Part shown: in pieces, positions 21,531 through 62,348 of the stretch
How the letters are laid out: the number at the start of each line of letters is the position of its first letter
Position numbering within the stretch: position 1 is the first letter of the stretch
From: an uncultured Dehalococcoidia bacterium
Lineage (GTDB): Bacteria; Chloroflexota; Dehalococcoidia; Lucifugimonadales; UBA3495
Direction: 5' to 3'
Assembly: GCA_950072105.1 (NCBI GenBank)
Contig: CATMOE010000001.1
Coordinates: forward strand, 96,001-160,000
Length of the DNA stretch: 64,000 bases
Notes under the pieces: model-generated
The model's database searches: none
Seen by the model: only the letters and a program-made list of their open reading frames with translations
Told to the model about the DNA's origin: nothing
Translations under genes and position numbers: made by a program

Positions 21531-23246
21531 CTAGGGGACGTCATTCGATCCGGCATAGACCTGGGTACCTGGATGAAACGAGTACCACCCGAACCAATAG
21601 GATGCTCGACTGGGCAGCCTGGCAAGCCGCTCAGTGGGGTTTTCTACTAATACCAACGCCTCTTCCTCGATTTGCCAAGGCCGGTCGTTCATGTCAGTCA
21701 GGGTAATGCTCCCATCCCCAGATCCGGTTCGCGGCAAGCGAAACTTATATGACCCTCTTTCGTAAGCCCGGGCACCCACCTGGTCAGTTGCGACAACCAC
21801 TAATGCTTGTCCCGACACCGTGTCATTGATTACCAGCTCCTTGGACAGTGACTCAAACGGATAAGCCTTGGCTTGCCCATTCAAAATCAACCCTAGGACT
21901 TGGGCTTTTGTGGCCAAAAGCTCGGCGCGTTGGGGGACCGGAAATATGGTGTCCGGGGTATTACGGTAGCGGAAGTATATCGACCGGCGGTCATCCTCGG
22001 GCGCATAGCTGCTGGGCGGATACACCCCGGTTTCGATGCTCAGTACGGTGGTGTCCGGATGAAGCGCCAGCCAGTCGGCCCATGTTGTCAGCGCTACGGG
22101 AATCAGCTCAAGCTTCACGCCGCTGTCGCCCAAAGGTCCCACAACCGGCTCACCTAAGAACTGGTGCCACAACGATTTGGTCCCCCGGTCGTACATCAGC
22201 TTGTTGCTGTGATAAAGCATGCCCGACGTACCGAAACTCAGGACCTCTCCATCTACCTTCGTGGAATACACGATTCCAAAGCCGCAGAGAGTTCAATATG
22301 CGAGGGCGAAGGGAACGCCGCCAAGAACGTCGTTGGCCATCTCGTGGGGGTTTAGGATTCGCAGCGGGTAGGCCCGGTGTTCTTCGTTTATCAAAACGCC
22401 GAAAACCCGGTCCGTGGGCCTCAGATACCTGGCATCCAGAGCGGGAATCGAGGTTGGGTTAATCAGGTCCGGTATGCCATCCTTGGCAACCCCTCCCCCC
22501 ACCGCTTCTTCCAAGCGGATACGAGTTTTCACGCCGTCGTAGAAGAAGGCCCCCATGCCCGGGTCGATGTGGGCCAGGAAGCGGCCTTTCCACTCGGCAT
22601 AGCCCATGGGCGGCTCGATCTCAGGATGGCCGGCCAGCCATACGCTCCACTGCATCCATTCGTTCCGCTCCGTCGAGTCAGGTTTGGCATCGTCGCCAAC
22701 CAATCGATCTAGGTAGGAGCTGTAACTGGCCCGTCCTTCGTAATATATCTGCAGACGCAAGAAGTCGACTAAGATAGGAACGTAGGCGAGGTCACCGGAT
22801 TCCGCCATTTTATCGGCCACATACTCCAGTCCGAGGAGAACCGGGCCGAACCGGGGCATGTCAGGGTCGTCACCAATCTGGTGGAAGATTGGCAGAGAAC
22901 TTAGGGCCGAGGCCAGAAGGGCCTGGTGTTTATCGTTTCCAGGATCGGAGGCCGCCGGGCCGGTGGTGGAAGGTGATGAGAGATTGGGATCAACAACGGC
23001 TACAACGCCACTTGCGGCCGGGTTAGAACGTGTGGCGGTAGGCTCCGCTTGCCTGACGGTAGGCGACGGTCGCGGCGCGACGAGGGTCGGTTCTGGCGAC
23101 GGTACAGTGCTCGCTGGCGCCCCCGTGGAGTTGCAAGCCAAGCTCACAACTAAGAACGCCATAAGCAACAATAAACCGGCGGGCTTCAGTCCAAGCACAA
23201 CCCATCCACGGCTTCTGTATATTATTGCCGGCATCTGTGACCTCAA
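21531..23246 (-). CDS. DUF3179 domain-containing selenoprotein (putative lipoprotein); Sec at TGA 22293-22295
   Basis: ORFs 22293..23246 and 21531..22271 share a frame, joined by FALAY-TGA-TLCGFGIVYST (UxxC at the family CPLC site); KDGIP, HEMAND, FGTSGMLY..NKLMYDR..SLW motifs; downstream hairpin; lipobox-like VSLAC; start uncertain. Confidence 0.88.
22262..22278 (-). promoter_or_regulatory. Putative bSECIS upper stem (DUF3179)
   Basis: mRNA UGGAAU-CGUGU-AUUCCA starting 14 nt after UGA. Confidence 0.65.
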
Positions 23247-23451
23247 AACCTAATCAACCATGCGTTCAGGGGAGATCGGTGGGTTCGGCTTGGGAACGGT
23301 AAAGGGGTTGGTTTCTTGTGCTGGACCGCCTAGCGGGGAGTTTCGCCAAGCGCGGCATCGCTGCTATATATAACGGAAGAATCCGGCTCGCGGTTTCATT
23401 GATGGATGGTGAGGGTGACGGCCGCCAGGTATCCTGATCGCCGATTCAGAC

Positions 23452-24474
23452 CTACCAGTTGGGATTTCGGTCCTCGGAGCTGTTGTTGGTCATGCGCAAT
23501 TGATTGATCCCATTCGATTCCATCACGAAGATCTCCCCTTCTCCGTACAGATGGGATACAAAGGCGATGCGCTTGCCATCACGGGACCAGGAAGGCATCA
23601 GGTCTTCGACCTCGTTGTTGGTTAGCCGGACCTGCTTGGACCCGTCGCCCCGCATGGTGTAAACCTCGGAATTACCGTCCCGGGACGAAACAAATACTAT
23701 GGACTTGCTGTCGGGAGACCAGGAGGCCCCCCGGTCCGAAACGTCGTTCTGAGTCAGACGGATCGACTCAGGTTCGTCTTGCCAGGTGCGTCTTTTCAGC
23801 TTGCTGAGGGTGTAGATCTCCTCCTCACCGCCTTCTCCCCGGACGAAAACAATGTGTAGGCCGTCGGGAGACCAGGAAGGCGAGTGATCGAGGCCGGTGG
23901 TCAGATGAACCAGGTTGACTCCATCCGGGTTGCGCAGCCAAAGCCCCCGTTCCTCTTCATCACCCAGGACGTAAAACACCAGCCATACACCGTCTGGGGA
24001 CCAATCTCCCAATCGTTCTTGGCTATCGTTGGAGGTGATGCGAGTTGGATTGGCGCCATCGGAGTCCATCAGATACAAGTCGGTCTGGCCGTCGCGTTGC
24101 GAGATAAACGCCAGCCTTTTGCCATCGGGAGACCACCGGGGCGAAACGTCATCTCCGGCTTCGTGAGTTAGCCGCGTGATGACCTCACCCTTCCGGTCTA
24201 CCACGTTGATCTCCAGGTCGCCGGATTCGTCCGACAGATACGCTATGTGCTTCCCATCCGGAGAAAGTCTGGGACCGTAGTCGGCGCTACCGTTGTTGGT
24301 CAAGGAAATGGACTCGCCGGATCTTGCGTTAAGCAGGACCACTTCCAAGTCCCCGTCGGCCGACGACACGTACACGATTTCCTGAGATGAAGAGGAAAGG
24401 CAAGCAATGCCCAAAGCTAGGGCGAGCGGAAATAAGATTAATCCGAAAAGACGGGACAAGTACGGCAATTTCAT
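23452..24474 (-). CDS. TolB-like beta-propeller (PD40 repeats) exported protein
   Basis: Repeated WSPDG/SPDGK motifs; N-terminal signal/lipobox-like LGIAC; ATG 24474. Confidence 0.9.
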   Translation of the reverse strand: MKLPYLSRLFGLILFPLALALGIACLSSSSQEIVYVSSADGDLEVVLLNARSGESISLTNNGSADYGPRLSPDGKHIAYLSDESGDLEINVVDRKGEVITRLTHEAGDDVSPRWSPDGKRLAFISQRDGQTDLYLMDSDGANPTRITSNDSQERLGDWSPDGVWLVFYVLGDEEERGLWLRNPDGVNLVHLTTGLDHSPSWSPDGLHIVFVRGEGGEEEIYTLSKLKRRTWQDEPESIRLTQNDVSDRGASWSPDSKSIVFVSSRDGNSEVYTMRGDGSKQVRLTNNEVEDLMPSWSRDGKRIAFVSHLYGEGEIFVMESNGINQLRMTNNSSEDRNPNW

Positions 24475-24823
24475 TCTATATCCCCAGGTTGACTGCCAGG
24501 TGCGGACACCGAGACCGCCGCCCCACACCTAAGATTACCTTGATGTGGATTATATCCAATCACAACGCATCGTTAGCTTGCCGCGAAACACCCGGTTTAA
24601 CCTGAAAAGCCCGGTTTGACGAAAAGCTCTATGTAACCGGCATCTGAGTAGATGCTCGAATACCTACCGGCTGAAAAGGATAGCCGTATCAGTAGCAGTC
24701 TGAACACCGAACGAATAACTATACCTGCTTGTCTCTTGACAGGGCTGGCGGCGTATTTTAGCATCACGGCAACCGGCGAAAGCAGCGACATGGCAATTGC
24801 GTAGCCGCCGATGGAGGTACGAC

Positions 24824-27119: not shown

Positions 27120-27120
27120 C

Positions 27121-38621: not shown

Positions 38622-38642
38622 GGAAAGCCTCCTACTCGCCGT

Positions 38643-38651
38643 ATTATAGCA
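38643..38651 (-). promoter_or_regulatory. Extended -10 promoter for cca
   Basis: Minus strand TGcTATAAT, followed by AGGAGG. Confidence 0.6.
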
Positions 38652-38694
38652 TGGTGGCCGGCAGATCCTTGTCTCGGAACCTGCCTCTAATGCT

Positions 38695-38723
38695 TTGACA
38701 ACGGTACCAGGGATGGATACAAT
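38695..38723 (+). promoter_or_regulatory. Sigma70 promoter for the DsbA-like/rnc genes
   Basis: TTGACA-17 nt-TACAAT. Confidence 0.75.
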
Positions 38724-38753
38724 CCAATCACGAAAACACCAGGAGGTACTATC

Positions 38754-39386
38754 GTGGCAGAGGCAAACTTCACGACTTATTACGATTTTCGTTGACCCTT
38801 CGTGTACAATGCCGCCATGTGGCTGGCAAAAGTTAGGGAAGCTAAGGACGAAGAAATCGAAGTCGATTGGCAACCCTTCTCTCTGTCCCAAGTGAACAGC
38901 GACAAAGAATCGGATATCAAGCTTTGGGAGCAGCCGGAGCATCTAGACGGCTCTGACCATACCTTCTTGGCTCACCGGTCCGGTCTTGCGGCCAAGCGAC
39001 AGGGTAAAGAGGCTTTTGAGTCCTTCTTTATCACTCTGCTCAAGGCACGGCACGAAGACAAAAAGGACCTGAACGACCCAGTGGTTATGGAAGAAGCCGC
39101 AATCACTGCCGGTTTGGATATGGCCCGCTTCCGCGAGGACCAGTCCGACCCTGACCTGCTCCGGGAAATCGGCGAAAGCCACACCAAGGCCATTGAAGAG
39201 GTCGGGGCCTTCGGAGTGCCTACATTCGTTTTTGGGGAAGGCAAGGCTGCTTTCCTTAAGATGTTCATTCCCCCGGACGAACAATGCGCCGAGATTTACG
39301 ATACGCTGATCAAGACCATGAGCGAATTCGCTCACGTGGGCGAACTCAAGCGCCCGCAGCCGCCCTGGCCTCATGGAGTCATCTAG
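38754..39386 (+). CDS. DsbA/FrnE-like thioredoxin-fold selenoprotein; Sec at TGA 38793-38795
   Basis: AGGAGG then GTG 38754: MAEANFTTYYDFR-TGA-PFVYNAAMWL, in frame with ORF 38802; cis-Pro motif AFGVPT; downstream hairpin. Confidence 0.85.
38810..38828 (+). promoter_or_regulatory. Putative bSECIS upper stem (DsbA-like)
   Basis: UGCC-GCC-AUGU-GGC-U-GGCA starting 14 nt after UGA, with a bulged U. Confidence 0.65.
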
Positions 39387-40098: not shown

Positions 40099-40179
40099 AA
40101 ATTAAGAACCTGCTCGAAACCCATCGCCGGGAATCAAATATCCAAGTAAATTTTGGTCAAACGAAGGTCCAGCCGCTCA

Positions 40180-41136: not shown

Positions 41137-41144
41137 GCCGGGTG

Positions 41145-46228: not shown

Positions 46229-46430
46229 GGTTTGCCCGTGATAGCCCAAGCAATTCGCCCGAATTCGGAGAGTCCGGGACGGGTATGTCCTTGAGCAGGC
46301 CCGTGAAGCTCCGGTATACTGGGCACCGTATCCTGTGAAGAAGAAGATGAGGAAACGCCGCAAGTTCTGCCGGGACGCCCAGTGACCTTTCCAACTCCGT
46401 TCACGATTATCTTGTCGAGGTATCTAGAGA

Positions 46431-48868: not shown

Positions 48869-48993
48869 GTGGCGGCAGTTGCAAAATCCGGCCCACCAAG
48901 TAAAATAGTTGGAGCGGCGCTGTTACGGCGAAGTTACTCTGAAGCCGCAAAGACGCCCAATCATACCCAAGGGCGTCCAGTCCATCATAGTAG

Positions 48994-49236
48994 GTGTTTG
49001 TTGTGAGTGTTGAATCTTCCGAATCCCAATCCGGCAGCCAGTCGCGCCGGGGTTTCCTGGCCAAGATCGGTCTTGGTGTAGCGGCCATCGCCGCGGTATC
49101 TCTGCCGCTCGGCCTGGGCCGAGGTAACCCAAAATCCACGGCCACCCCAGCGTCCCAAGAATTCCCCGGTGAAGACTCCATTTTCCACCCAGCCCAAGAT
49201 CCCCGGTTGGACCCCCGCCGCAACAAGTCCTCTTAG
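48994..49236 (+). CDS. Small protein with twin-arginine (Tat) signal
   Basis: SRRGFLAK followed by a hydrophobic stretch; very short mature part. Confidence 0.6.
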   Translation: MFVVSVESSESQSGSQSRRGFLAKIGLGVAAIAAVSLPLGLGRGNPKSTATPASQEFPGEDSIFHPAQDPRLDPRRNKSS

Positions 49237-49587
49237 AGTCTACGCCAGGATTCCCATGGCAGGTTCGGCAAAGTGGTGCGAGCCGAGGGTCGTCGCTTCT
49301 TGCAGGGAATCTAGCTAACTCGCTCTCAACACTGTCACCCCTCTCCTTCCGCCGAAGGATCGGGGTCTCTGGCCTTCGTTGAGAGCGCCTCCAAGGGTGG
49401 ACAGGCCGTTGGTGCAAGTACTAGACCGTCTTGCTAATGTTACCTGCGATTCCTCGCCGCCCTTCAGCGGAAGGGCTGGTGTCGGAATGACGAAGAGCGT
49501 GGCCGAAGGCTGGCGATCCTATCTTCGGAGCACTGACAGGTTGGCGCACTCAGGCGATCCACCACCATCAACTCAACCCGCAACCGG

Positions 49588-51300
49588 CTAACGCCGCCCA
49601 AACTCCCGTTCCATGTGGAAAGAGCTGAAATGGAGCATGGTGGGACGGCCATGGGGACAGGTGTGGGGATTGGTGGTGGCCTCCAACTGCTCGAGCAGTG
49701 ACCGCATCTCGGCTTCGCTGAGGGACTTTCCCGCCCTGATGGCGCTGTGGCAAGCGATGGACGCGGCCAATATGTCCTCCTGTTGCCGTAGCAATCCCTC
49801 GAACGCCACCATATCCAGAACGTTGAGCAGCCCTTGTCCGGGGTCCTGTTCGCTTAAGATGCTAGGGACCGCCCTAACCAGGTAGGAATCGACGCCGAAG
49901 GGCTCTAACCGGTACCCGTAGTGGGTCAGCATCTCTTGGTTTTTTTGCAAAACCTCAAGCTGGGCTGGAGACAAGTCAACCATGGCGGGTTCTAGCAAAC
50001 TCTCGGCGGGCCGCTCGGCGTCCTCCTTGGCCTGAATCCTGTCGAATAAGATCCGCTCGTGGGCCGCATGCTGGTCCACTAGGAACATCCCGTCCGGCCC
50101 TTCAGCTACGATATAAGTCAGCTTGACTTGGCCCACGACCTTCAGCGGAGGAGGAGCGGCGATGGACGCCGCCGCGTCAACCGGCCCAGAGAACGTCCCC
50201 TGCTGTTGGCCGGAGAAAACGGTGCGGGGGAAATAGGACTGGCTCCCCACCGGATACGGATTCATCGCGGAAGAAGAGCCGCTGGGCGACTGTAGCGGCG
50301 GTACCGGCGAGTCGGCGATCAGCGCGGCTCGAACCGTTCGCTGCAACGCGGAAAAAACCTTTCCTTCCTGGTGAAACCGTACTTCGCGCTTCGCCGGGTG
50401 GGAATTAACGTCCACATCGCTGTAGGGCACGGTCAAGTTGATAGCGGCTAAAGGAAAACGGCGCTCCGGCAACAGCCCATGGTAGGCCTCCTCCAAGGCG
50501 AAGGAAAGCATGCGGCTCTGGATCCACCTGCGGTTGACGAAGAACGCCATGTAAGTCCGGTTGGAGCGATGGAGATTGGGGGCGCTGATGAATCCGTCGA
50601 CGCCGTAGCCGTTCTCCGGGTCTTCGCCGTGAACCTCCAGCATATCCTCGGCCGCTTCGGAACCGTAGACCGCCAACAGCGTTTCCCGGGCTTGGCCGTT
50701 GCCCGAACTGGTTAGCGATCGGCGCCCGTCACTGACCAATTGAAAAGCAACGGACGGGTATGCTAGGGCGTATCGGGCCACTAACTCTTGAACCCGCCCT
50801 GTCTCGGTAGAATTGGACTTCAGGAATTTACGGCGGGCCGGCATGTTGCCGAACAGATCTGAGACCTCCACCGTGGTGCCCACTGGACATCCCTGGGCGC
50901 CATTCGCCGACCTGATGCCCCAATCGATGGCGATGCGCTGTCCGGAACCGGACTGAGGCGGACGGGTGGTCATGGTCAGCCGGGAAACAGCGGCAATACT
51001 GGGCAAGGCCTCACCCCGAAACCCCAGGGTCGCGATGGCGTCGAGCTGCTCTTGGGACTGAAGTTTGCTGGTGGCGTGGCGGGCGAAGGCGGTTTCCAGC
51101 TCGGAAGGAGTGATTCCCTCTCCGTCGTCGGTGACTCGAATTCTTTCGGTACCGCCGCCGGCGACCTCAACGACTATCCGGGAAGCGCCAGCATCCAGAG
51201 AGTTTTCAACCAGCTCTTTTACCACCGACGCGGGTCGTTCTATAACTTCCCCGGCGGCGATCTTGCTGGCCAGGTCCGGTGGGAGCACCTTGATGGGCAT
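49588..51300 (-). CDS. mutL: DNA mismatch repair endonuclease MutL
   Basis: IAAGEVIERP, GFRGEAL, DQHAAHER, ACH, CPHGRP. Confidence 0.97.
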   Translation of the reverse strand: MPIKVLPPDLASKIAAGEVIERPASVVKELVENSLDAGASRIVVEVAGGGTERIRVTDDGEGITPSELETAFARHATSKLQSQEQLDAIATLGFRGEALPSIAAVSRLTMTTRPPQSGSGQRIAIDWGIRSANGAQGCPVGTTVEVSDLFGNMPARRKFLKSNSTETGRVQELVARYALAYPSVAFQLVSDGRRSLTSSGNGQARETLLAVYGSEAAEDMLEVHGEDPENGYGVDGFISAPNLHRSNRTYMAFFVNRRWIQSRMLSFALEEAYHGLLPERRFPLAAINLTVPYSDVDVNSHPAKREVRFHQEGKVFSALQRTVRAALIADSPVPPLQSPSGSSSAMNPYPVGSQSYFPRTVFSGQQQGTFSGPVDAAASIAAPPPLKVVGQVKLTYIVAEGPDGMFLVDQHAAHERILFDRIQAKEDAERPAESLLEPAMVDLSPAQLEVLQKNQEMLTHYGYRLEPFGVDSYLVRAVPSILSEQDPGQGLLNVLDMVAFEGLLRQQEDILAASIACHSAIRAGKSLSEAEMRSLLEQLEATTNPHTCPHGRPTMLHFSSFHMEREFGRR

Positions 51301-51309
51301 GGCAGCGCC

Positions 51310-51747
51310 CTAAAAGAGAGGTATGGTGGAGCCCTTGGCTTTGTACTGACGGTCTTCCGACGACCCGGTTGCGACGACGTCGGCAATGATCTGGTAGATG
51401 CGGTCCATTTCCTGGTCTACGCTTCGTTTGAAGAAGTACGGCGGAACCCACACGCCGCTAAAAGCAGCGACGATCTCGGGATAGTCGTCGATGACAAAAT
51501 CGGGCTCGAAGGGAACACTCAGTTCTTCCAGTCGCTCGTGGAAATGGTGGGTGGGCTTTTCGTACACGCCGCTGATAAGAGGTTCCAGGTTATGCTTTTT
51601 CACCACTTCCCAGCGCTCTCCCATCCCGGACCAGATGTAGATCTCGTGGCCGTCGTCCTTTATCTTTTGTAGAGTCTCCATGGTCCCTGGGCGGAGACTA
51701 TCGTCAAGCCCCAAGATAGTGTAGTCAACGTCGAAAAATATCTTCAT
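51310..51747 (-). CDS. Minimal HAD-superfamily hydrolase
   Basis: FFDVDYT (DxDxT), IWSG, K, VIDD. Confidence 0.75.
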   Translation of the reverse strand: MKIFFDVDYTILGLDDSLRPGTMETLQKIKDDGHEIYIWSGMGERWEVVKKHNLEPLISGVYEKPTHHFHERLEELSVPFEPDFVIDDYPEIVAAFSGVWVPPYFFKRSVDQEMDRIYQIIADVVATGSSEDRQYKAKGSTIPLF

Positions 51748-51888
51748 GGGCGAGTGTGGGGCCTTCTTTCAATGGCAGAATTGGGAACCGGATAATGTGA
51801 TTATATCGTAACCTCCGCTGCGAATACAGTGCAATTCAGCACCGAAAATTGCTTGTTGTCTGAGATGCAACGCCAAATTCGGCAACTG

Positions 51889-52242
51889 CTATTCCGCCAG
51901 GGCAGCTTCCACCGCCTTGATATTCGCGCCCACCAGCAACTTTCCATCCATGTGGACCAAGGGGCGCCGCACCAAACGGGGTTCTTGCAGCATCAAGGAC
52001 ACCATTTCCGCGTCGGAGAGCTCCTTACCCGCCAATCCCAGTTTTTTTAGGCTGGGGCTCCGGCTGGCGAACATCGCGGATATCCCAGTGCCTTGAGCCA
52101 ACTCCAACAGTTCCGATTCCGAGAACGGTTCTTTAAAGTAGTCCCTTTCTTCCAACTGGACGCCGTTTTGTAAGAGCAACTCTCTTACCTTTCGGCACGA
52201 CGATCAACGAGGCCACCAATAAAAAGAGGCAGTTTTGCTCAT
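51889..52242 (-). CDS. ArsC/Spx family selenoprotein; Sec at TGA 52204-52206
   Basis: GGAGG then ATG 52242: MSKTASFYWWPR-TGA-SSCRKVRELL, in frame with ORF 51889..52179; EPRLVRRP motif; downstream hairpin. Confidence 0.9.
52162..52196 (-). promoter_or_regulatory. Putative bSECIS (ArsC-like)
   Basis: GCCG-AAAG-GUAAGAG-AGUUG-CUCUUAC-AAAA-CGGC; upper stem starts 15 nt after UGA. Confidence 0.72.
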
Positions 52243-52327
52243 GGTTCCTCCATCTAAGGCTAAATAGATCAAGGTCCGCCGATTATCCTACTCCGTGTGA
52301 CCGGCTCCGGGATGTTGTTCGTGATGG

Positions 52328-54967
52328 TTAAGCGGGGCCCTCCGGGTTGCGAGCTTTCTGCTGCAATTCATAAAGCCGGTTTATGGCCTCCAGCGGCGTC
52401 AAGTTGGGAATGTCCAACGCCTTGACCTCGTCGGCCAGGGCCTGTGCCGGATTGAACAAATGCATCTGCAGGTCCGGCTCCCGGCGGTGGGTCTTTCGGC
52501 TGACGGGATGTCCGTCCCTGTGGTTGCTTTCCTCAAGCTCAGCCAGCACTTCCCAAGCCCGGTTCACCACGCCGTTTGGCAGCCCGGCCAGGCGGGCCAC
52601 GTGCACTCCGTAACTCTTATCGGCGCCCCCTGGAGCGATGCGGTGCAGGAAGATCACGTCGCCATCCTCCTCAGCCACCGCAACCGTGAAGTTGCGCACC
52701 CCTGGCAGGGTGTTCGCCAACTGAGTCAACTCATGATAATGGGTAGCGAAGAGGGTTTTGCAGCCCAACCGGGGGTCGTTGTGCAGATGTTCGATAACCG
52801 ATTGGGCGATGGCCATTCCGTCATAGGTGCTGGTGCCCCGGCCTATCTCATCCAACACCACCAACGACCGTGGCGTGGCCTGGTTCAAGATCGCCGCCGT
52901 CTCCACCATCTCCACCATGAAAGTTGACTGGCCGGTGGTCAGGTCGTCTTGTAGTCCAACCCGGGTGAAAATCCGGTCCACCAAGCCTATGACCGCCTGG
53001 GTAGCGGGTACGAAGCTGCCGATCTGGGCCATCAGTATGATGATTGCCGCCTGCCGTATGAATGTCGACTTTCCGGCCATGTTGGGTCCGGTGAGGACGA
53101 TAATCTTGGCGTCGCCGTTGGACAGATAAACGTCGTTGGGCACGTAGCCGCCCGGAGGCAGAACACCCTCAACCACCGGATGGCGCCCGTCCTTGATATC
53201 TATGACATCGCCCATGTCCAGACTTGGCCGGACGTAGCCGTTGCGCACCGCTATTTCCCCCAAGCCGGCAAATACATCCAGCTGGGCTATGGCGGCAGCC
53301 AATCGGGAGATGGCGGCCCCTGATTCGCTGATCTGGCGGCATACCTGCCGGTAAAGGGTTTTCTCCAACTCATCCAGGCGCTCCCGGGCGTTCAGCACCA
53401 GAGACTCATACTCTTTTAGCTCCGGTACGATATATCGTTCGGAGTTGACCAAGGTCTGACGGCGGATGTATTCCTCGGGGACCTGGGCAACATTGGCTTT
53501 GCTGACCTCGATGTAGTAACCGAACACCTGGTTATACCCGACTTTCAGGCCCCTCAACCCGGTGCGTTCCCTTTCTTTCAGTTCCAGTCCGGCAATGTAG
53601 CCCCTGGCGTCCCGGGAGGCCTTTTTAAGTTCATCCAGCTCGGGAGAAAAGCCTTCCCGAATCACGTTCCCCTCGCCCACCGCGCCGCTCGGTTCCGGTG
53701 CTATGGCGCTTTCGATCAGGGAGCCCACTTCCGGTATCGGAGACAATTCCCGGCTCAACCAGGCCATGGAAACGTCTTCGCCACCGCCAGTCTGGGAATG
53801 TTCCGTCTCCAAACCAAGGCCGAGTTGTTCCACCAGTCCGGGCACGGCATCGAGACCATGCTTTAAGGCCAGCAGCTCCCGGGGTACTACCATCCCGGCG
53901 TTTATCCGGCCCAAGATCCGCTCCATATCGGGGACTTGGGATAGAAGGGAGGAGGTATTGGCCCGGCGAAAGCCATCTTCGAAAAAGTATCCCACCGAGT
54001 CCAAACGGCGGTTCAACTCCTCCAGTTCCAGCAACGGCTGGCCCAACCAGCGGCGCATTAACCTACCGCCCATGGGTGTCTTGCTCAAGTCCAACGTTGC
54101 CAGCAATGACAATTCTTTGTTTTCCGCCCGGCCTGCCGCGAACAGCTCCAGGTTGCGCCGGGTTTGGCTGTCCAGGATCATATAATCCGAGGCGTAGTAA
54201 ACGGCCAGGTTGGCTAGTCGCAGATTGCCGGACTTTTGGGTTTCTCCCAGGTAATCTACGATGGCCCCAGCGGCCCGCACCGCCAAAGGCAGATCTTGGC
54301 ATCCGAAGGACTCAAGAGAAACAACGCCGAAGTGGTCCAACACAGCCGATTTAGCTCCTTCGTATTCGAAGCAGGACGGGTCCAAGAGAGTTGGCTCTCC
54401 ACGAATACCAGCCAATGGTGGCAGGGGAGCCGATTGGGACGGGTCATCAGGTCGGGGCGCCAGCACCTCGGAGGCGGCTATGCGTTCCAGTTCCGGAGGT
54501 AATTGGGACCGGTCGAGTTGAGCGGCGGCGAACTCGCCGGTTGTAACGTCCACGTAGGCTAATCCGGCCGAATCGCCCTCGATAACCACCGAAGCCAGGT
54601 AGTTGTTGGTATTTTGGTCGAGAAGGGACGACTCCAACACCGTGCCTGGCGTTACCACCCGCACCACTCCGCGGTCGACCAATCCCTTGGAGGCGGCCGG
54701 ATCGGTAAGTTGCTCGCAGATCGCGACCTTGTGGCCCTTTTTTACCAACCGGGCCAGGTAGTTCTCCATGGCGTGGGCGGGTACTCCGGCCATGGGAACT
54801 CTCACGTCTTTACCCATGCTCCGGGAAGTGAGGGTTATCTCCAGGTCTCTGGCGGCGACTCGAGCGTCCTCGTCAAAGGTTTCGTAGAAGTCACCCATGC
54901 GAAATAGGACGATAGCGTCAGGGAAGGAGTGTTTAATCTTGAGGTACTGGCGGCGTATCGGCGTCAC
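52328..54967 (-). CDS. mutS: DNA mismatch repair protein MutS
   Basis: FRMGDFYE, TGPNMAGKST, STFMVEM, DEIGRGTST, ATHYHEL, SYGVHVA. Confidence 0.98.
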   Translation of the reverse strand: MTPIRRQYLKIKHSFPDAIVLFRMGDFYETFDEDARVAARDLEITLTSRSMGKDVRVPMAGVPAHAMENYLARLVKKGHKVAICEQLTDPAASKGLVDRGVVRVVTPGTVLESSLLDQNTNNYLASVVIEGDSAGLAYVDVTTGEFAAAQLDRSQLPPELERIAASEVLAPRPDDPSQSAPLPPLAGIRGEPTLLDPSCFEYEGAKSAVLDHFGVVSLESFGCQDLPLAVRAAGAIVDYLGETQKSGNLRLANLAVYYASDYMILDSQTRRNLELFAAGRAENKELSLLATLDLSKTPMGGRLMRRWLGQPLLELEELNRRLDSVGYFFEDGFRRANTSSLLSQVPDMERILGRINAGMVVPRELLALKHGLDAVPGLVEQLGLGLETEHSQTGGGEDVSMAWLSRELSPIPEVGSLIESAIAPEPSGAVGEGNVIREGFSPELDELKKASRDARGYIAGLELKERERTGLRGLKVGYNQVFGYYIEVSKANVAQVPEEYIRRQTLVNSERYIVPELKEYESLVLNARERLDELEKTLYRQVCRQISESGAAISRLAAAIAQLDVFAGLGEIAVRNGYVRPSLDMGDVIDIKDGRHPVVEGVLPPGGYVPNDVYLSNGDAKIIVLTGPNMAGKSTFIRQAAIIILMAQIGSFVPATQAVIGLVDRIFTRVGLQDDLTTGQSTFMVEMVETAAILNQATPRSLVVLDEIGRGTSTYDGMAIAQSVIEHLHNDPRLGCKTLFATHYHELTQLANTLPGVRNFTVAVAEEDGDVIFLHRIAPGGADKSYGVHVARLAGLPNGVVNRAWEVLAELEESNHRDGHPVSRKTHRREPDLQMHLFNPAQALADEVKALDIPNLTPLEAINRLYELQQKARNPEGPA

Positions 54968-56054: not shown

Positions 56055-58895
56055 TTAGCTCGAGCCGTTGCTTCCGGCTTTCACCACCTTGGCGGGCCGA
56101 ATATCCAAACCCGGAACATTAGATGCCGGGTCAGGGTCTTTACTGTCTTGCAAGTCCACCGCCAACTGGCCGAATAACGAAGTGACGGCAACGACTCCCG
56201 GTGGGACCGAATCAACCAACCGGGCCTGCCCCGTCAGGTCGCCTCTCTGGGTGAGCACCTCAACTTCATCCCCTTCGCCGATCGACCACGCGGCGGCGTC
56301 GGAGGCGTTCAACTCCACCCACTCCTGCCGCTGTATGCGGTTTCGCTTTCCTTCGATGATTTCCATGTCCCGATGGTTCTGCAGCAGAACCCGCCCTGGA
56401 ACCAATAAGAATGGATATTCGGAATCGTCGGCCGGCTCGGCAGCCCGGAATTCGGGAGTGGCCGGGTCGGCTTTCCTTTCTTGGAAACCTTCAACGTACA
56501 ATGTTTCGGTACCCGGGGCGCCGGGTTCTTGGCAGGGCCACTGGATACCTCGGTATTCCCTGCTGGAATGGAGTACTTGGGTTGGCTGGGGGCTTTCCAG
56601 ATTGGTCCTTAGAACCAAACGGCTTTCCTCTTCCAGGCGCTTGTAGGACACCCCCGCGTAGATGGGACTCAGGCGGGCGATCTCGTCCATGACTTGACTG
56701 GGCGAATGGTGGTCGAACCCCGATGCTCCCATTCGACGGGCCAATTCGCAGATCACCCAGCTTTCCGGACGGGAGTCGTTGTTCTTCACTTGAATGGAAG
56801 CCGTTAGCCGTTGAACCCGGCGTTCCAAGTTGGTGAATGTCCCCTCTTTCTCAGCGAAAGTAACTCTGGGCAAAACGACGTCGGCGATCTCGGCCACCGG
56901 ACTCAAAAAGGTGTCGTGAACCACCAAAAAGTTCAACTCCCGCAGAGCCGACAGCCCATCGCCCAACTTTCCATTGCTGAAATTGGCGCTGTCGCCAATC
57001 ACCATCATTGCCTTGATACGTCCTTCGGCAGCTCCACGGATGGCTGCGGCCAGGCCAAGCCCCGGATTGGACGGCAATGTGATTCCCCAGGCTTCCTCGA
57101 ACATTTGACGGGCATTTTCGTCGCCAACCGGCTGGTAACCGGGAAGCCGCCCAGGCACGCAGCCAACGTCCCAGGCCCCCTGCTCGTTGGCCCCTTGCCT
57201 CATGGGATAGATGCCGGACCCCGGTTTCCCTAGATTGCCGGTCACTAACACCAAGTCGATCAACGCCCGGACACAGTCCTGCCTTAAATCAACCGAGACG
57301 TTGTCCAGAGCGTAGACCACCGACGCCGATTCAGCTTGGCCGTAAAGCCGGGCGGCCTCCGCGATGTCATCCAGCGAAACTTGGGTTATCTGGACGATCT
57401 GGTCCATGTCCAGATTATGCAGCGCGTAGTGGACCGTTGACGGACTTTCACAGTTCTCTTCCAGCCACTCGGGATTTTCCAATCCTTGGTCGATCAAAGA
57501 CCGGAGTACGCCACCAAGGAGGAGCAGTTCGGTTCCGGGCGCCGGACGCAACCAGACATCAGCGTAACGGGTCAACTCCACTTCTCGAGAATCGATGACC
57601 ACCAGTTTGGTGTCGCGCTTGGCGGCCCGTTTGATCGGCACGCCAACTACGTTGTGTTCTTCGGTAACGTTGGAGTTGAACACCAAGATGCAACCAGAAT
57701 TCTCAAGGTCCCAGATAGGATTGGTGGCCGCGGCGTAGCCAAGGGCGTTCTCCAAGGCTTCGACCAACTCCGGTTGCACATTAGATGTTTGGTCCACGTT
57801 ATTGGTGTTCATCACCACTCGGGCGAATTTTTGGCCCAGATAGTGCTCTTCGTTGGTGCTCTGAGGCGAAGTAAGCAGGGCGAACGTGTCGCCCGTATAC
57901 TCGGAAAATCTGGTCGATACCAGGTCCAGGGCATCTTCCCAGGTAGCCTCTTCCAGTACTCCGTTGCGGCGGATTAACGGTTTGCGCAACCGATCGGAGC
58001 TGTTGACGTACTCCAGGCCGAATTTGCCTTTGAAACAGGCCTGGCCCCGGTTGGCCGGCGAGTTGAGGTCTGGTACGGCCCGAATGAAACGGCCTGCGGA
58101 GTTAATCTCCAGGTTGAGCTGGCAGCCAACGGGACAATGGGGACAGATGGTGCGCTCAACTCGGGCTGCTTTCTCCCACTTGTGGTCACGTTCCACCAGA
58201 GCGCCCACCGGGCAGACATCTATGCAGGCGCCGCAGAACTCACACCCCGATTCCAGCAGAGACGTCCCGAACGATGTGCCCACCAGCGCGGAGCCGCTCC
58301 TCTCTGTGAAACAGATCGCGTCGTCGCCCCGCAGTTCCTCGCAAGCCCGGACGCAACGGCCGCAGACGATGCACAGGTTGTAATCACGGTCGTAGAAGGG
58401 GTCGGCGACTTCCAAGGGAATCTGGCGGTACTTGTAATCCAGGGGTGACTCCAGGTTCATGCCCAAGTAGCGGACGGTGTCCTTGAGCTCGCACCGCTCG
58501 TTCTTGGGACAGGTGACGCACCGGTCGTTGACCGAAACGTGGCGGAGACATACGTCGTTTGGTCCGCATATTTCGACCCGGTGGCAGGTAAGACAACCGT
58601 CGGGATGCTCTGCGATGAGCATCTCCATCACCGACCGGCGCAACTCCAGAACGTCGGGGACTTCGTTGCGGATCTTCATGCCGTCCGCGACTGGTTGGAC
58701 ACAGGCGGCGGGATAACCGCGGCCTCCTTCAACGCCGACCACGCACATCCGGCAGGCGGCAAAGGGCTTCATGCCGGGATGGTAGCAAAGATACGGGATG
58801 TACACCCCGGCTTCGATAGCCGCTTCCAGGATCATCTTCCCTGGTTGGGTGATTATCTCAACCCCATCAATGGAGATGGTTATGTCATCTGCCAT
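56055..58895 (-). CDS. nuoG: NuoG / formate dehydrogenase alpha-like Fe-S protein with degenerate Mo-bisPGD site
   Basis: N-terminal 2Fe-2S motif (C..CRMC..C), HxxxCxxC, CIVCGRCVRAC/CEFCGACIDVCP, CPHCPVGC..C; NNVDQTSNVQP in place of NNVDxCARx(C/U)H. Confidence 0.8.
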   Translation of the reverse strand: MADDITISIDGVEIITQPGKMILEAAIEAGVYIPYLCYHPGMKPFAACRMCVVGVEGGRGYPAACVQPVADGMKIRNEVPDVLELRRSVMEMLIAEHPDGCLTCHRVEICGPNDVCLRHVSVNDRCVTCPKNERCELKDTVRYLGMNLESPLDYKYRQIPLEVADPFYDRDYNLCIVCGRCVRACEELRGDDAICFTERSGSALVGTSFGTSLLESGCEFCGACIDVCPVGALVERDHKWEKAARVERTICPHCPVGCQLNLEINSAGRFIRAVPDLNSPANRGQACFKGKFGLEYVNSSDRLRKPLIRRNGVLEEATWEDALDLVSTRFSEYTGDTFALLTSPQSTNEEHYLGQKFARVVMNTNNVDQTSNVQPELVEALENALGYAAATNPIWDLENSGCILVFNSNVTEEHNVVGVPIKRAAKRDTKLVVIDSREVELTRYADVWLRPAPGTELLLLGGVLRSLIDQGLENPEWLEENCESPSTVHYALHNLDMDQIVQITQVSLDDIAEAARLYGQAESASVVYALDNVSVDLRQDCVRALIDLVLVTGNLGKPGSGIYPMRQGANEQGAWDVGCVPGRLPGYQPVGDENARQMFEEAWGITLPSNPGLGLAAAIRGAAEGRIKAMMVIGDSANFSNGKLGDGLSALRELNFLVVHDTFLSPVAEIADVVLPRVTFAEKEGTFTNLERRVQRLTASIQVKNNDSRPESWVICELARRMGASGFDHHSPSQVMDEIARLSPIYAGVSYKRLEEESRLVLRTNLESPQPTQVLHSSREYRGIQWPCQEPGAPGTETLYVEGFQERKADPATPEFRAAEPADDSEYPFLLVPGRVLLQNHRDMEIIEGKRNRIQRQEWVELNASDAAAWSIGEGDEVEVLTQRGDLTGQARLVDSVPPGVVAVTSLFGQLAVDLQDSKDPDPASNVPGLDIRPAKVVKAGSNGSS

Positions 58896-58917
58896 GGATA
58901 CTACTCCGGTCCGTTTT

Positions 58918-58935
58918 CACCGCAGAGACGCGGAG
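58918..58935. repeat. Left arm of 18-bp inverted repeat flanking the GxxExxY gene
   Basis: caccgcagagacgcggag. Confidence 0.85.
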
Positions 58936-58952
58936 GATATTATGAGTTCCCA

Positions 58953-59339
58953 TTATTCATCCAATCCTAAAACGACCCTTTTTATACCTTGTTTCAATGC
59001 CGCTACGTTGAAGTTCATCAACAGCCCTACTTTCCATCCGCCAAGCCTTAAGTAGGTTAACAGTTGAGCTTGGTGAATAGGTAATAATCGGTCGACCGCT
59101 TTTATCTCGACAACAACCGTGCCAGCAACTAGCAGATCTAGCCGGTAACCGCAGTCCAGCCTTATGCGTTTGTAGTTTACAGGCAGATGACGTTGCCGAT
59201 CGAACTGAATTTTTCGCAAATCTAATTCCCTGCACAAACATTCCTCGTAAGCAGATTCAAGAAGTCCCGGCCCAAGCGCCCGGTGAACTTCTATACCAGC
59301 TCCAATCACGGTTTGTGTAACCTCGTTTACACTAACCAC
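58953..59339 (-). CDS. GxxExxY protein (PD-(D/E)XK nuclease-like, PDDEXK_3)
   Basis: [44 protein letters not shown]; visibly more AT-rich than flanks. Confidence 0.93.
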
Positions 59340-59347
59340 TCTGCGAA

Positions 59348-59365
59348 CTCCGCGCCTCTGCGGTG
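59348..59365. repeat. Right arm of 18-bp inverted repeat flanking the GxxExxY gene
   Basis: ctccgcgcctctgcggtg; 17/18 match to the reverse complement of the left arm. Confidence 0.85.
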
Positions 59366-59376
59366 TATCTGTCGCG

Positions 59377-61110
59377 TCACCTGCGGCTAGACACTGGCGA
59401 GAATCGGGGGGCCGAGCACACTTCGGTGGGGCAGCGCCGGTTCAGGATGTGGGTTTCAAACTCTTCGCCGAAATAACGCAAGGCCGAGGCCACCGGGTTG
59501 AAACCGAGTTGGCCGTGCCCGCAAAGGGAACCGGCCTGCATATCTTGACCCACTTTACGCATCAGGTCCAAGTCCTCTGGAACACCCTCCAAACGGCAGA
59601 TCCGCTCCAGCACCTCTAACAAGTGGCTCATCCCCATCCGGCAGGGGAAGCATTTCCCGCAGGACTCGTACTGGCAGAAAGCGATGAGGGCCCTGGTTAA
59701 GTCGACGACACAATTGTCTTCATCGGCGGCGATGACTCCCCCTGAGCCCAGAATAGCACCGGCGGTTCTCAGAATATCAAAGTCCAGCACGATGTCTATG
59801 TTATCGGCGCCCAGCACTCCACCCAACGGCCCGCCGGTCTGCACAAATTTCAGCGCCTTTCCGTCCGGAACGCCTCCGGCCGCCTGGTACAGCACGTCCT
59901 TCAGATTGATGCCCAGAGGCACTTCAATCATACCCGTGTATTTCAGGTCGCCGGTCAGGCAGATTATTACGGTTCCAGTGCTCTTGTCATGGCCGATACC
60001 GGCAAACCACTCGCCTCCCTTGGCGATAATTTCCGGGACGTATGCCAAGGTCTTCACGTTATTGATGTTACTGGGTTTGCCGAACAGACCGACCGCCGCC
60101 GGAAAGGGCGGGCGGTATCGGGGCATCGCCCTTTTCCCTTCGATGGCCTCCATCAGGGCGCTCTCCTCTCCGGCCACATAGGAGTCGCCGGTCAAGGCCA
60201 CTTCCAGATGGAAACTGAAATCGGATCCGAGGATGTTCTCACCTAAGAAGCCCATTTCCTGGGCCTGGACGACAGCGGCTCGAGCCCGGTCTATGGGTCC
60301 GTCGTGGCCGTGACGGATAAATATATAGGCGTGGCTGGTGCCCGTAGCGTAGCCCGCCAGAATTATCCCTTCAACCAAAGTCTGTGGGTCGCTCTCCAGA
60401 ATAGCTTTGTCGTTGAAGGCCCCCGGGTCCCCCTCTTCGCAGTTGCAGAGTATGTATTTCTGCGGCGCGTTGGATCCGGCTAGGAACCCCCATTTCACAC
60501 CCGTGGGGAAAGCCGCGCCGCCTCGGCCTCGCAGACCCGAGGTTTTCACGTCCTCCAGAACCTCTTCCGGAGTCATCTCCGTCAAGGCCCGGTTCAAGGC
60601 GTGGTAACCACCGTAGGCGATGTACTGATGGATGTCCCCAGGGTCGATGGTCCCGGCGTTTCGCAGCGCCACCCGATTCTCCAGCACCCGCATGGGATGT
60701 TGGTTAAGATCCGGTATCCCGGCCAATGTGGAATCAACTTCCTCATCCGGCCCGCCGGCCGCCAGGTAGCCAAGCGCCAAGTGAGCCAGCGGGCTTCCTC
60801 CGGCAACATGATTAGACACGATCTCGGCAGCCATATCAGGGGTCACATTGCCGTAAAAAACCCTTGGTCCGCCGGGAAGCTGGACATCCACCAGCGGTTC
60901 CGCGAAGCATAGGCCCAAGCAACCCACCTGACTCAGCTGGGCGGCAACGCCGTTCTGCTCCAAAGCAGCTTCGATGCTTGCGATAACGGCGTCGCATCCG
61001 GCGGCCTTCCCGCAAAGGGCCGTACCGACCCTTATCCAAGGCTGGCCTCCGGCAGTTAACTCCTCCCAGCGCTGCTGGCTTTCGGCGGCAATCTCCTCGA
61101 AACTAGCCAT
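59377..61110 (-). CDS. nuoF: NuoF/HoxF-like FMN/NADH-binding subunit with N-terminal thioredoxin-like 2Fe-2S domain
   Basis: [49 protein letters not shown]-terminal GCLGLC. Confidence 0.9.
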
Positions 61111-61576
61111 TCTGTTCCGCCAGCAATTCAGCGATCCTTGCCTTGGCTGATTCCGGAGTCGCGCGGCCGATCAAGTGATGGTCGATAGCCATTACCGGGG
61201 CTTGGGAGCAGGCGCCCAGGCAGGTGTTGTAGCGGAGTGTCAGCCGCCCGTCGGAAGTATCGCCTTCCGTTTCAAGGCCGCTGGCCTGCAACGCCGCCTC
61301 GATCAGCGGCATGGCGCCGACCAAGTGGCAAGAAGCGCCCCAACACACCTCAACCTGGTGCAAGCACGGTGGTTCGAAACGAAAGTTGGGATAGAAGGAC
61401 GCAACCGCCCAGACTTCATTGATAGTGGAACTGGTGAAAGCCGCTACCTCTTCAATCCCTTGTTTGGGGATGAAGCCAAGTTCGTCCTGGACGGCTAGAA
61501 GGGTGGAAAGAACGGTGACAGTGGGCTGGGATTGGCGGTGCATCGCGTCGGCTATGCGGGGTTTCAGCCCATCCAT
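61103..61576 (-). CDS. nuoE: NuoE-like 2Fe-2S subunit
   Basis: VASFY, VCWGASCH, CLGACSQAP. Confidence 0.9.
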   Translation of the reverse strand: MDGLKPRIADAMHRQSQPTVTVLSTLLAVQDELGFIPKQGIEEVAAFTSSTINEVWAVASFYPNFRFEPPCLHQVEVCWGASCHLVGAMPLIEAALQASGLETEGDTSDGRLTLRYNTCLGACSQAPVMAIDHHLIGRATPESAKARIAELLAEQNG

Positions 61577-61778
61577 TTACCGGGCTCCCATGAAAAAGTT
61601 GATAGAGGAGGTTGAACCAAAATCATGGACTTCGTGAATTTGGTAACAATCCGGATTTATGGTACCACAGCCCCAATTGGCGTTCAATCGAATGGCACTC
61701 AGCTTACACGAAATAAGGGGCGGGAAAAACGCCGCCCCTTTGGACGCCAAGTTGAAACCTGCGGCCAGATTTAGAAGG

Positions 61779-62348
61779 CTAGACTGCCTGCTTGGCTGCG
61801 CTGCCCACCAAGATACGCTCTACATCCGGAGCGATCTCAGCGGCCCGCTGCTTGCACTCTTCATCAGTCAGGCTTGACAACGGATGTTGGGCAACCACGA
61901 ACTCGTAGTCCGGGACGCCCATCATCCGGACCATGGCCTTCGCCGTGGGCAGGAAAACGTGGGTGATGATAGACGCGGTGGGGATGCCCAGGCGCTCCAT
62001 CTCGATACCGTCGTGCACACTGCACGAACTGCAGGACCCTCAATCACCTATCCCGGTGATCAGCACATCCACCTTATCCATAAGTTCTTGGACGACTTCT
62101 GGTTTGGTGGGCAACGAGGCCGAATGCTTGCTAAGCATTATCACGTCTTTAAGGTCGTATTTCTCTTTGAGAATCACGGCCAATTCTTGAAGAACCTTGT
62201 CCGAGTTGGCTTTGTGGTTTTCCAGCAAGCCCAGGGTCTTGCCGCTAAGTTCGCTGGGCCGGTCGTTCAGGTGGAACTCGCCAGAGGAAAGGTCGGTCCC
62301 CCTGGGATTCACCAAACGCATATCCCTAACCGTTACAGTCTCCGCCAT
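61779..62348 (-). CDS. UGSC family selenoprotein; Sec at TGA 62040-62042
   Basis: ORFs 62040..62348 and 61779..62018 share a frame: ITGIGD-TGA-GSCSSCSVHDGIEMERLGIP; NHKANSD, QHP motifs. Confidence 0.9.
62011..62027 (-). promoter_or_regulatory. Putative bSECIS upper stem (UGSC)
   Basis: UCGUGCA-GUG-UGCACGA starting 12 nt after UGA. Confidence 0.7.

What the first reader, a model, noticed from the sequence alone, without database searches (positions are those of the whole stretch)
21531..62348. Four hidden selenoprotein genes in 41 kb sharing a common SECIS geometry
Seen: four unrelated genes each have an in-frame TGA exactly at a thiol-redox Cys position (DUF3179 UTLC 22293; DsbA-like UPFV 38793; ArsC/Spx USSC 52204; UGSC UGSC 62040). 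Each is followed after 14, 14, 15 and 12 nt by a 6-7 bp stem whose loop contains GU (CGUGU, AUGU, AGUUG, GUG). Known: bacterial Sec insertion uses a hairpin just 3' of UGA, and E. coli SelB binds a GU in the apical loop. Inference: this organism has an unusually selenoprotein-rich redox proteome with a lineage-specific SECIS consensus, which standard gene callers would split or truncate.
Basis: partly seen in the sequence, partly recalled or inferred. Interest (0 to 1): 0.85.

Follow-up and report, generated by a model that had tools for sequence, protein, structure and literature searches.

The report
Four known-family selenoproteins in SAR202
Four genes of this marine SAR202-type bacterium carry an internal TGA "stop" that is very likely read as the rare amino acid selenocysteine; all four protein families and the RNA signal are already catalogued, and the notable part is that the genome is predicted to hold about 60 such genes although it looks oxygen-breathing.

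Summary
Observation confirmed. The four TGAs are in frame, family matches run across them, and homologs of three have Cys at that column. The TGA is kept in every aligned relative (30/30, 30/30, 30/30, 80/80). Synonymous change is suppressed inside each hairpin, with compensatory pairs in three. The genome has selA, selB, selD and tRNA-Sec and still uses TGA as a common stop. Relatives are Dehalococcoidia/SAR202.

All four families (DUF3179, DsbA-like form 2, ArsC/Spx-like, UGSC) are in published selenoprotein tables. Four genes in 64 kb is not a cluster.

Richness is supported: I count about 61 candidate genes (92% complete assembly; published record 63), about five in uncatalogued families. 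A 2026 database table already lists close Dehalococcoidia with 49 and 46. The scan found the same kind of thing before on another SAR202-type genome (e1-4772596). Real, mostly known; the open lead is a near-record selenoproteome in a predicted aerobe.

The parts
21531..23234 (-). DUF3179 selenoprotein gene, UxxC; start most likely ATG 23234 (GAGG 7 nt upstream), TTG 23246 or GTG 23198 possible; N-terminus looks like a lipoprotein signal (by eye)
22293..22295 (-). In-frame TGA (predicted Sec), column is Cys in 102 of 103 database homologs that span it
22262..22278 (-). Predicted SECIS hairpin, 6 bp, loop CGUGU (30/30 relatives)
38754..39386 (+). DsbA-like (form 2, DxxUP) selenoprotein gene, 210 aa, single active-site Sec, upstream of rnc and ftsY
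38793..38795 (+). In-frame TGA (predicted Sec14); Cys in PDB 7dk9 and in 9 of 10 full-length database homologs
38810..38828 (+). Predicted SECIS hairpin, 7 pairs with one bulge, loop AUGU (14/30) or GUGU (16/30)
51889..52242 (-). ArsC/Spx-like selenoprotein gene, 117 aa, UxxC, between mutS and mutL
52204..52206 (-). In-frame TGA (predicted Sec13), aligned to the first Cys of the Spx CxxC
52170..52188 (-). Predicted SECIS hairpin, 7 bp, loop AGUUG (26/30), with compensatory changes
61779..62348 (-). UGSC-family selenoprotein gene, 189 aa, UxxCxxC, one of 12 paralogs in the genome, upstream of a nuoEFG-like cluster
62040..62042 (-). In-frame TGA (predicted Sec103), kept in 80 of 80 relatives
62011..62027 (-). 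Predicted SECIS hairpin, 7 bp, loop GUG (80/80), nearly invariant at synonymous sites

Best explanation
The four genes are intact, unrelated redox-protein genes whose in-frame UGA is very likely decoded as selenocysteine by the ordinary bacterial SelB/SECIS system, as part of a predicted selenoproteome of about 60 genes in a SAR202-type Dehalococcoidia genome. Shown: the TGAs, their position at the catalytic Cys column, their conservation, the hairpins, and selA/selB/selD/tRNA-Sec in the genome. Inferred mechanism: SelD makes selenophosphate, SelA converts Ser-tRNA(Sec) to Sec-tRNA(Sec), and SelB binds the loop G(U/G) about 20-24 nt after the UGA with its last winged-helix domain and delivers the tRNA; the common geometry simply reflects this one SelB. 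Inferred protein roles: the selenolate replaces the attacking thiolate. DsbA-like: cytoplasmic one-Sec thiol-transferase/reductase like Rv2466c or the Deinococcus protein 7dk9. ArsC/Spx-like: glutaredoxin-fold UxxC redox switch or reductase. DUF3179: likely exported, lipid-anchored UxxC redox protein on a predicted Rieske-like scaffold without a cluster. UGSC: likely a GrdB/PrdB-like substrate-attacking subunit (UxxCxxC) working with a neighbouring 350-aa partner.
For: Machinery over curated cut-offs: tRNA-Sec 66.4 bits, selA (13), selB (14), selD with its own TGA (15); selD over cut-off in 57 of 60 genomes searched, own included; selB in 99 of 151 genomes of the class. SelB C-terminus matches the solved SelB SECIS-binding fragments 1lva/2uwm, 2ply, 1wsu (E 6e-24), with the last helix-wing stretch nearly identical. 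Aligned codon TGA in 30/30, 30/30, 30/30 and 80/80 loci (each set includes the best hits only; the three sets of 30 include the own gene). One TGA inside 51 of 53 DsbA matches and 50 of 50 ArsC matches. Cys at the column: Spx CTSC (48), 7dk9, 9 of 10 full-length DsbA homologs, 102 of 103 DUF3179 homologs. Non-modal synonymous codons inside vs outside the hairpin: 4/150 vs 247/761, 15/86 vs 263/725, 22/171 vs 261/644, 2/400 vs 775/2757. Compensatory U-A to C-G swaps: 9/30 DUF3179, 10/30 DsbA, 6/30 and A-U to C-G 2/30 ArsC (94). TGA is still a normal stop: 317 of 1160 long ORFs. UGSC vs GrdB/PrdB profile: probability 83%, E 8.5e-6 over 38 columns around the Sec. DUF3179 model pLDDT 91, best matches Rieske domains, Z 8.2, rmsd 3.5, 97 aligned.
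Against: No protein-level evidence: Sec incorporation and all enzyme roles are untested. The DsbA hairpin fails my implementation of the published model (G is third in the AUGU loop) and the DUF3179 hairpin is weak alone (-4.3 to -5.7 kcal/mol). The outer DsbA and DUF3179 pairs are broken in several relatives. The UGSC hairpin is invariant, so it shows no covariation. The ArsC/Spx protein is just under the TIGR01617 cut-off (73.9 vs 75.05) and far under NF041106 (31.6 vs 85); DUF3179 and DsbA hit no NCBIfam model. Relatives are kin and not independent. The genome count is my own heuristic, partly selected on hairpins; 15 of 61 genes had no spanning match in the fetched part of G007; the assembly is 6% contaminated. 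The Rieske Z is at the tool's stated 'common arrangement' border and Foldseek gave no hit at E<=0.001. The UGSC fold search gave only generic Rossmann-like matches.
Confidence: 0.96

Rival explanations
1. The lineage uses its own SECIS consensus (12-15 nt spacer, 6-7 bp stem, GU loop), distinct from other bacteria.
For: All four window hairpins fit it and only 1-3% of control positions do; loop G positions across the genome are somewhat narrower (17-28 nt) than the published 16-37 nt.
Against: Only 32 of 62 candidate UGAs fit it; selD's loop starts 27 nt out; GG loops make up 18 of 52; no stem consensus. The published model already says 'a single G, often followed by G or U' in a small loop. 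SelB's RNA-binding end looks standard.
Confidence: 0.1
2. TGA is generally reassigned (Trp or Cys) or leaky in this organism.
For: One DsbA and one DUF3179 database homolog carry Trp at the column, probably a gene caller's use of another code (inference).
Against: 977 of 3525 called genes end in TGA (a few dozen are the Sec genes); the only TCA-anticodon tRNA is tRNA-Sec; TGAs sit at Cys columns with selected hairpins.
Confidence: 0.01
3. The genes are pseudogenes or split genes, or the TGAs are sequencing errors.
For: Most database records are truncated at these sites.
Against: The same TGA is kept across genera and families at 41-98% protein identity; contigs of four RNA-library runs carry no listed difference over the UGSC gene.
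Confidence: 0.01
4. The genes are real but the high genome count is inflated by assembly contamination and false positives; the true number is nearer 45-50.
For: 6% contamination; 13 of 61 lie on contigs under 15 kb; a smaller relative, G007, has only about 23; two entries look like fragments (C25-46186, C9-11142) and two rest mostly on hairpin and coding signal (C2-6274, C70-12915).
Against: No two genes exceed 84% DNA identity; same-genus genomes have 10 and 8 UGSC copies vs 12 here; a close named relative has 49 from known families alone; my scan misses some genes (membrane proteins, C-terminal Sec).
Confidence: 0.25

Closest known systems
Bacterial Sec recoding, bSECIS consensus model (described in PMC13188914 section 5; original Zhang and Gladyshev 2005, not read)
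   Same: Hairpin right after the UGA, small loop with G followed by U or G, spacing inside 16-37 nt, SelA/SelB/SelD/tRNA-Sec
   Different: The DsbA hairpin has G third in its loop in 14 of 30 genomes; the DUF3179 hairpin is weaker than -7.5 kcal/mol alone. Neither defines a new class.
DUF3179 domain-containing selenoprotein (PF11376, UxxC/T; PMC13188914 Table 1)
   Same: Domain, UxxC motif, one Sec
   Different: About 250 extra N-terminal residues with a likely lipoprotein signal; predicted twin Rieske-like fold not found in print but noted often by this scan
DsbA-like protein form 2 (PF01323, DxxUP; PMC13188914 Table 1); structural relatives 7dk9 and Rv2466c
   Same: PF01323 domain and D-x-x-U-P motif
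   Different: Representative sequence of the table not compared; no resolving Cys (UPFV)
Arsenate reductase 2 / arsenate reductase-like selenoprotein (cd03032, UxxC, GOS PMC2398784; NF041106 in PMC13188914)
   Same: ArsC/Spx fold, UxxC
   Different: Scores 31.6 vs cut-off 85 on NF041106 and is closer to TIGR01617 (Spx/MgsR), so it may be a separate branch; activity unknown
UGSC-containing selenoprotein (NF041046, PF24696)
   Same: Over both cut-offs; UGSC motif
   Different: 12 paralogs in one genome; my model is Rossmann-like with GrdB/PrdB similarity, not thioredoxin-like as the GOS paper supposed
Selenoprotein-richest bacteria (BSepDB Table 2, PMC13326102)
   Same: Dehalococcoidia UBA1141 (49 genes; its UGSC protein is 98% identical) and another Dehalococcoidia genome (46; 82%, L042) are in the top ten
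   Different: The table counts known families only and, in the passages read, does not name SAR202 or discuss aerobes; my count here is about 61 vs the record of 63

Membership tests
Bacterial selenoprotein gene | In-frame UGA inside a conserved coding region | tested here: met
Bacterial selenoprotein gene | Cys at the same column in homologs | tested here: met
   ArsC; DsbA; DUF3179. UGSC: only TGA seen here; Cys homologs from print
Bacterial selenoprotein gene | selA, selB, selD, tRNA-Sec in the genome | tested here: met
Bacterial selenoprotein gene | Conserved hairpin just 3' of the UGA | tested here: met
Bacterial selenoprotein gene | Selenium in the protein | not testable with these tools
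   needs 75Se labelling or mass spectrometry
General bSECIS model | Loop 3-9 nt, G in first two positions, 16-37 nt from UGA, stem 4-16 bp, energy <= -7.5 | tested here: inconclusive
   My implementation passes 3 of the 4 window genes (DsbA fails on G position) and 58 of 62 genome-wide, but also 30-47% of controls; bSECISearch itself not run
   32 of 62 candidate UGAs; GG loops in 18 of 52
DUF3179 selenoprotein | PF11376 with UxxC/T | tested here: met
   243 bits vs 27; UTLC
DsbA-like form 2 | PF01323 with DxxUP | tested here: met
   64.7 bits vs 25.6; DFRUP
DsbA-like form 2 | Orthology to the table's representative MDP6049977.1 | not tested
   sequence not on hand
Arsenate reductase-like selenoprotein NF041106 | Score over the curated cut-off | tested here: not met
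   31.6 vs 85; works like an ArsC/Spx UxxC protein, not filed under this model
ArsC/Spx-type selenoprotein (GOS 'arsenate reductase 2', cd03032) | ArsC/Spx domain with UxxC | tested here: met
   PF03960 67.3 vs 24; Spx best PDB hits; cd03032 itself not available
UGSC family NF041046 | Score over cut-off with UGSC motif | tested here: met
   145.2 vs 125
Rieske [2Fe-2S] domain (for DUF3179) | CxH and CxxH ligand boxes | tested here: not met
   UTLCG and no second box among invariant columns; fold likeness only

The most novel reading that the evidence does not exclude
Dark-ocean SAR202 (group III type) are oxygen-respiring heterotrophs with a selenoproteome at or above the bacterial record (60 or more genes here, in a 92% complete assembly), including several uncatalogued families and an expanded UGSC/GrdB/PrdB-like reductase set. 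That contradicts the stated rule that aerobes rarely keep selenoproteins, and makes SAR202 a likely main source of the marine UGSC selenoproteins and a major selenium user of the deep sea.
Probability: 0.45. Interest if true: 0.6.

Novelty: new member of a known kind. Interest (0 to 1): 0.33.

Why it matters
The four genes themselves matter for annotation: gene callers cut them at or before the catalytic residue, so SAR202 redox proteins are stored without their active site. The larger point is the genome-wide one. A 2026 review states that the richest selenoproteomes are anaerobic and that aerobes rarely retain selenoproteins. This genome has an aa3-type oxidase over cut-off and 117 luciferase-like monooxygenase matches, the mark of SAR202 group III, yet about 61 candidate Sec genes. 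If confirmed, selenium supply could limit growth or cultivation of an abundant deep-ocean clade; the SAR202 cultivation paper's main text has no word beginning 'selen'.

Tried and rejected
General TGA reassignment, pseudogenes and a physical selenoprotein cluster were rejected (neighbours are nuo, rnc, ftsY, mutS/mutL). The DsbA-ArsC spacing of about 13-16 kb recurs in many relatives, which I read as ordinary core gene order. A first all-against-all search of TGA windows was swamped by shadow frames and was replaced by a gene-call filter. Doubtful candidates left out of the count: C7+62751 (deiodinase-like, weak hairpin, short), C6+86824, C96+9562, C20-3241, C53+18420, C37+9136, C122-2988, C21-22148, C161+3459, C18-54872, C24-22587. 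The molybdopterin protein at 56055-58895 has no in-frame TGA. UGSC has no PDB sequence match at E<=1 and no specific fold match; DUF3179 has no Foldseek hit at E<=0.001. RNA-library contigs cover the UGSC gene in 4 of 4 runs laid and much of 38400-52400, but contigs cannot show transcription or level, and parts of the mostly silent-looking stretch are covered too, so this is not used as expression evidence. I did not find the two-UGA MerT-like gene that another note reports. No covariance model was built, because pair counts and pattern tests answered the question. The last 0.3 Mb of G007 was not examined, so its count is completed only for DsbA and ArsC. BSepDB Table S2 (family representatives) was not in the stored part of the supplement, so 'uncatalogued' rests on the 119-family table of PMC13188914 and NCBIfam.
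Full report
Observation. Read as U they give a DUF3179 protein (571 aa from TTG 23246; ATG 23234 is the likelier start), a 210-aa DsbA-like protein, a 117-aa ArsC/Spx-like protein and a 189-aa UGSC protein. Pfam matches span each TGA. The hairpins have the reported spacers, stems and loops. A pattern built on that geometry passes 8/500 TGA stops, 8/500 TAG, 5/500 TAA and 13/500 Cys codons drawn from called genes of 150 codons or more, so four of four is not chance.

Organism and machinery. The best GTDB relatives of the UGSC protein are titled Dehalococcoidia, Chloroflexota or SAR202 (80 loci kept of 117). The genome (4.08 Mb, 164 contigs, 92% complete, 6% contaminated) has tRNA-Sec, selA, selB and a selD with its own TGA, all over curated cut-offs. 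selD is over cut-off in 57 of 60 genomes of the family and order, selB in 99 of 151 of the class. The SelB C-terminus matches the solved SECIS-binding fragments, most closely in the last helix and wing; that these entries are Moorella SelB is recalled, not from a call. TGA remains a stop: 317 of 1160 long ORFs and 977 of 3525 called genes end in it.

Conservation. Searching 60 genomes gave matches in 53 (DsbA), 50 (ArsC) and 37 (DUF3179); the 30 best loci of each were fetched. The aligned codon is TGA in 30/30, 30/30, 30/30 and, for UGSC, 80/80. Synonymous variation drops inside the hairpin: 0.03 vs 0.33 (DUF3179), 0.17 vs 0.36 (DsbA), 0.13 vs 0.41 (ArsC), 0.005 vs 0.28 (UGSC). Compensatory swaps occur in three hairpins; the UGSC one is invariant; outer pairs of DsbA and DUF3179 break in some genomes. 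Cys stands at the column in Spx structures, in 7dk9, in 9 of 10 full-length DsbA homologs among 120 listed (one Trp) and in 102 of 103 DUF3179 homologs that span it (one Trp; 17 of 120 start after it). The other 110 DsbA records are shorter and mostly start just after the UGA, which confirms the truncation claim.

Genome-wide count. I trained a codon model, removed shadow frames, screened TGAs for coding signal and hairpins, and checked them against paralogs, against 2.34 of 2.64 Mb of a relative (G007) and against Pfam/NCBIfam. I kept 61 genes (63 UGAs): UGSC 12, PrdB-like 4, GrdB 3, GrdA 1, DUF3179 3, DsbA-like 3, ArsC/Spx 1, glutaredoxin-DinB 2, UXX-star-like 1, SelW-like 3, Prx/Trx-like 6, deiodinase-like 1, BtuF-like 2, AhpD 1, OsmC-like 5, rhodanese 4, SelD, ferredoxin-thioredoxin reductase-like, MerB-like (two UGAs), CC/Se, and five not matched to a row of the 119-family table: a periplasmic-binding-type protein (label from another note; no family hit here), a thiolase-like protein (two UGAs), a CoA-binding protein, a small HExxH protein and a methyltransferase with N-terminal UGA. 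Forty candidates were scanned against the libraries (35 kept, 5 dropped); the other kept genes were assigned by similarity to scanned paralogs or in their own calls. Forty of the 61 have a TGA-to-TGA match in G007, 6 a Cys match only, 15 neither in that search (two of these 15, DsbA and UXX-star, are matched). Eleven doubtful candidates were dropped (see Tried and rejected). No paralog pair exceeds 84% DNA identity. G007 has about 23 such genes, and UGSC copy number runs from 1 to 22 in the family, so richness varies. Four genes per 64 kb is expected about once in this genome.

SECIS consensus. The Sec set was partly chosen on hairpins, so its pass rates are inflated, which makes the 32 of 62 more telling. 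The loop G lies 17-28 nt from the UGA and is followed by U (31), G (18) or A (3); stems have no shared sequence. The review describes exactly this: a G, often followed by G or U, in a small apical loop 16-37 nt from the UGA. One small deviation: the DsbA loop is AUGU here and in 14 of 30 genomes, with G third.

How the proteins likely work (inferred). In each, Sec takes the place of the attacking Cys. The DsbA-like protein has no export signal and no second Cys in the motif, like 7dk9, and likely acts as a one-selenol transferase or reductase. The ArsC/Spx-like protein has UxxC and is closest to Spx/MgsR models; redox switch and reductase are both open. The DUF3179 domain models at pLDDT 91 as an all-beta fold whose residues 33-145 match Rieske domains (Z 8.2, rmsd 3.5, 97 aligned; most top rows are Rieske), with weaker matches for 199-301; it lacks the Rieske ligand boxes. 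UGSC models as a Rossmann-like alpha/beta domain with Sec at a strand-helix turn and aligns with this genome's GrdB/PrdB-like proteins around the UxxCxxC motif (probability 83%, 38 columns). Nine of the eleven other copies lie beside a 340-363-aa gene and one is fused to a long C-terminal part (judged by size and look only); here that gene would be 62915-63955.

What is known. PMC13188914 (passages; section 7 parts 1-2 of 3) lists DUF3179 UxxC/T, DsbA-like form 2 DxxUP, arsenate reductase-like UxxC and UGSC. PMC2398784 (passages) lists 'arsenate reductase 2', cd03032, UxxC, and 255 UGSC sequences in ocean DNA. PMC9312934 and PMC1976440 (passages) agree. PMC13326102 (parts 1-2 of 6, passages, supplement searched but cut) ranks Dehalococcoidia UBA1141 (49 genes) and another Dehalococcoidia genome (46) in the top ten, record 63. 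Searches for SAR202 with selenoprotein (0 papers), SAR202 with selenocysteine (3 listings, none on this by title), Dehalococcoidia with selenoprotein (9 listings) and DUF3179 with Rieske (0) found no paper that discusses SAR202 selenoproteomes; subscription papers are not covered. PMC10444878 and PMC5395668 (passages) describe SAR202 as aerobic organoheterotrophs, group III with over 100 flavin monooxygenases, and do not mention selenium in the main text. This genome has cytochrome c oxidase subunit I over cut-off and 117 PF00296 matches.

Verdict. The finding is real and the Sec reading is near certain, but the families, the mechanism and the lineage's richness are in print, and the lineage-specific SECIS is not supported. 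This scan has already reported the same pattern in another SAR202-type genome and most of the uncatalogued families of this genome one by one. What remains is the sum: a near-record selenoproteome in a predicted aerobe. Interest 0.33.

Noticed in passing
L012:466-600 and 1495-3360 (G000:C10 near 42575 and 43603): A 36-codon duplicate of the selB 5' end lies about 1 kb upstream of the intact selB, with a 246-aa unrelated ORF between them; looks like an insertion that duplicated its target.
   Followed up: no
G000:C23:17631-22111: Array of 29 tRNA genes on one strand in 4.5 kb, likely of mobile origin.
   Followed up: no
L366 (G000:C116:5083-5307) and L295 near 8600-8777: 75-aa glutaredoxin-like gene with a C-terminal U-E-I-G-stop and a hairpin over the stop (UXX-star-like, under the cut-offs); the N-terminal CxxC here is UxxS with its own hairpin in G007.
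   Followed up: partly
L338, L321, L322, L318, L319 (G000 C28, C13, C45, C31, C140): GrdA plus three GrdB and four PrdB-like selenoprotein genes, normally Stickland-type anaerobe enzymes, in a genome with an aa3-type oxidase.
   Followed up: partly
L349 (G000:C3:29330-29764) and C124:2578-3012: OsmC-like proteins with the UGA at the C-terminal Cys position, not the UxxT first Cys of the published family; TGA also in G007.
   Followed up: partly
L327 (G000:C70:12286-12921): Methyltransferase with a UGA at codon 3 in a UxxC motif and a hairpin; not checked in relatives.
   Followed up: no
L342 (G000:C18:31962-33164): Sodium/proton antiporter fused to a rhodanese domain with CxU.
   Followed up: no
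L345 (G000:C4:82049-82462): Peroxiredoxin-like gene (TxxU) whose TGA is kept in G007 at 77% identity but has no hairpin under any of my three models: possible non-standard SECIS.
   Followed up: partly
window 62915-63955: 346-aa gene with no Pfam or NCBIfam match upstream of the UGSC gene, separated by a short small-gene region; likely the UGSC partner.
   Followed up: partly
window 49360-49495: Loose ends of contigs from several RNA-library runs pile up at 49363, 49448-49450 and 49491-49492, suggesting a short element shared with other organisms or loci.
   Followed up: no
G015: A family member with 22 UGSC matches in 2.8 Mb (7% contaminated).
   Followed up: no
window 8131-19310 and 56055-61576: The nuoA-N cluster lacks nuoEFG; nuoE-, nuoF- and nuoG-like genes lie 37 kb away, just downstream of the UGSC gene.
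   Followed up: no
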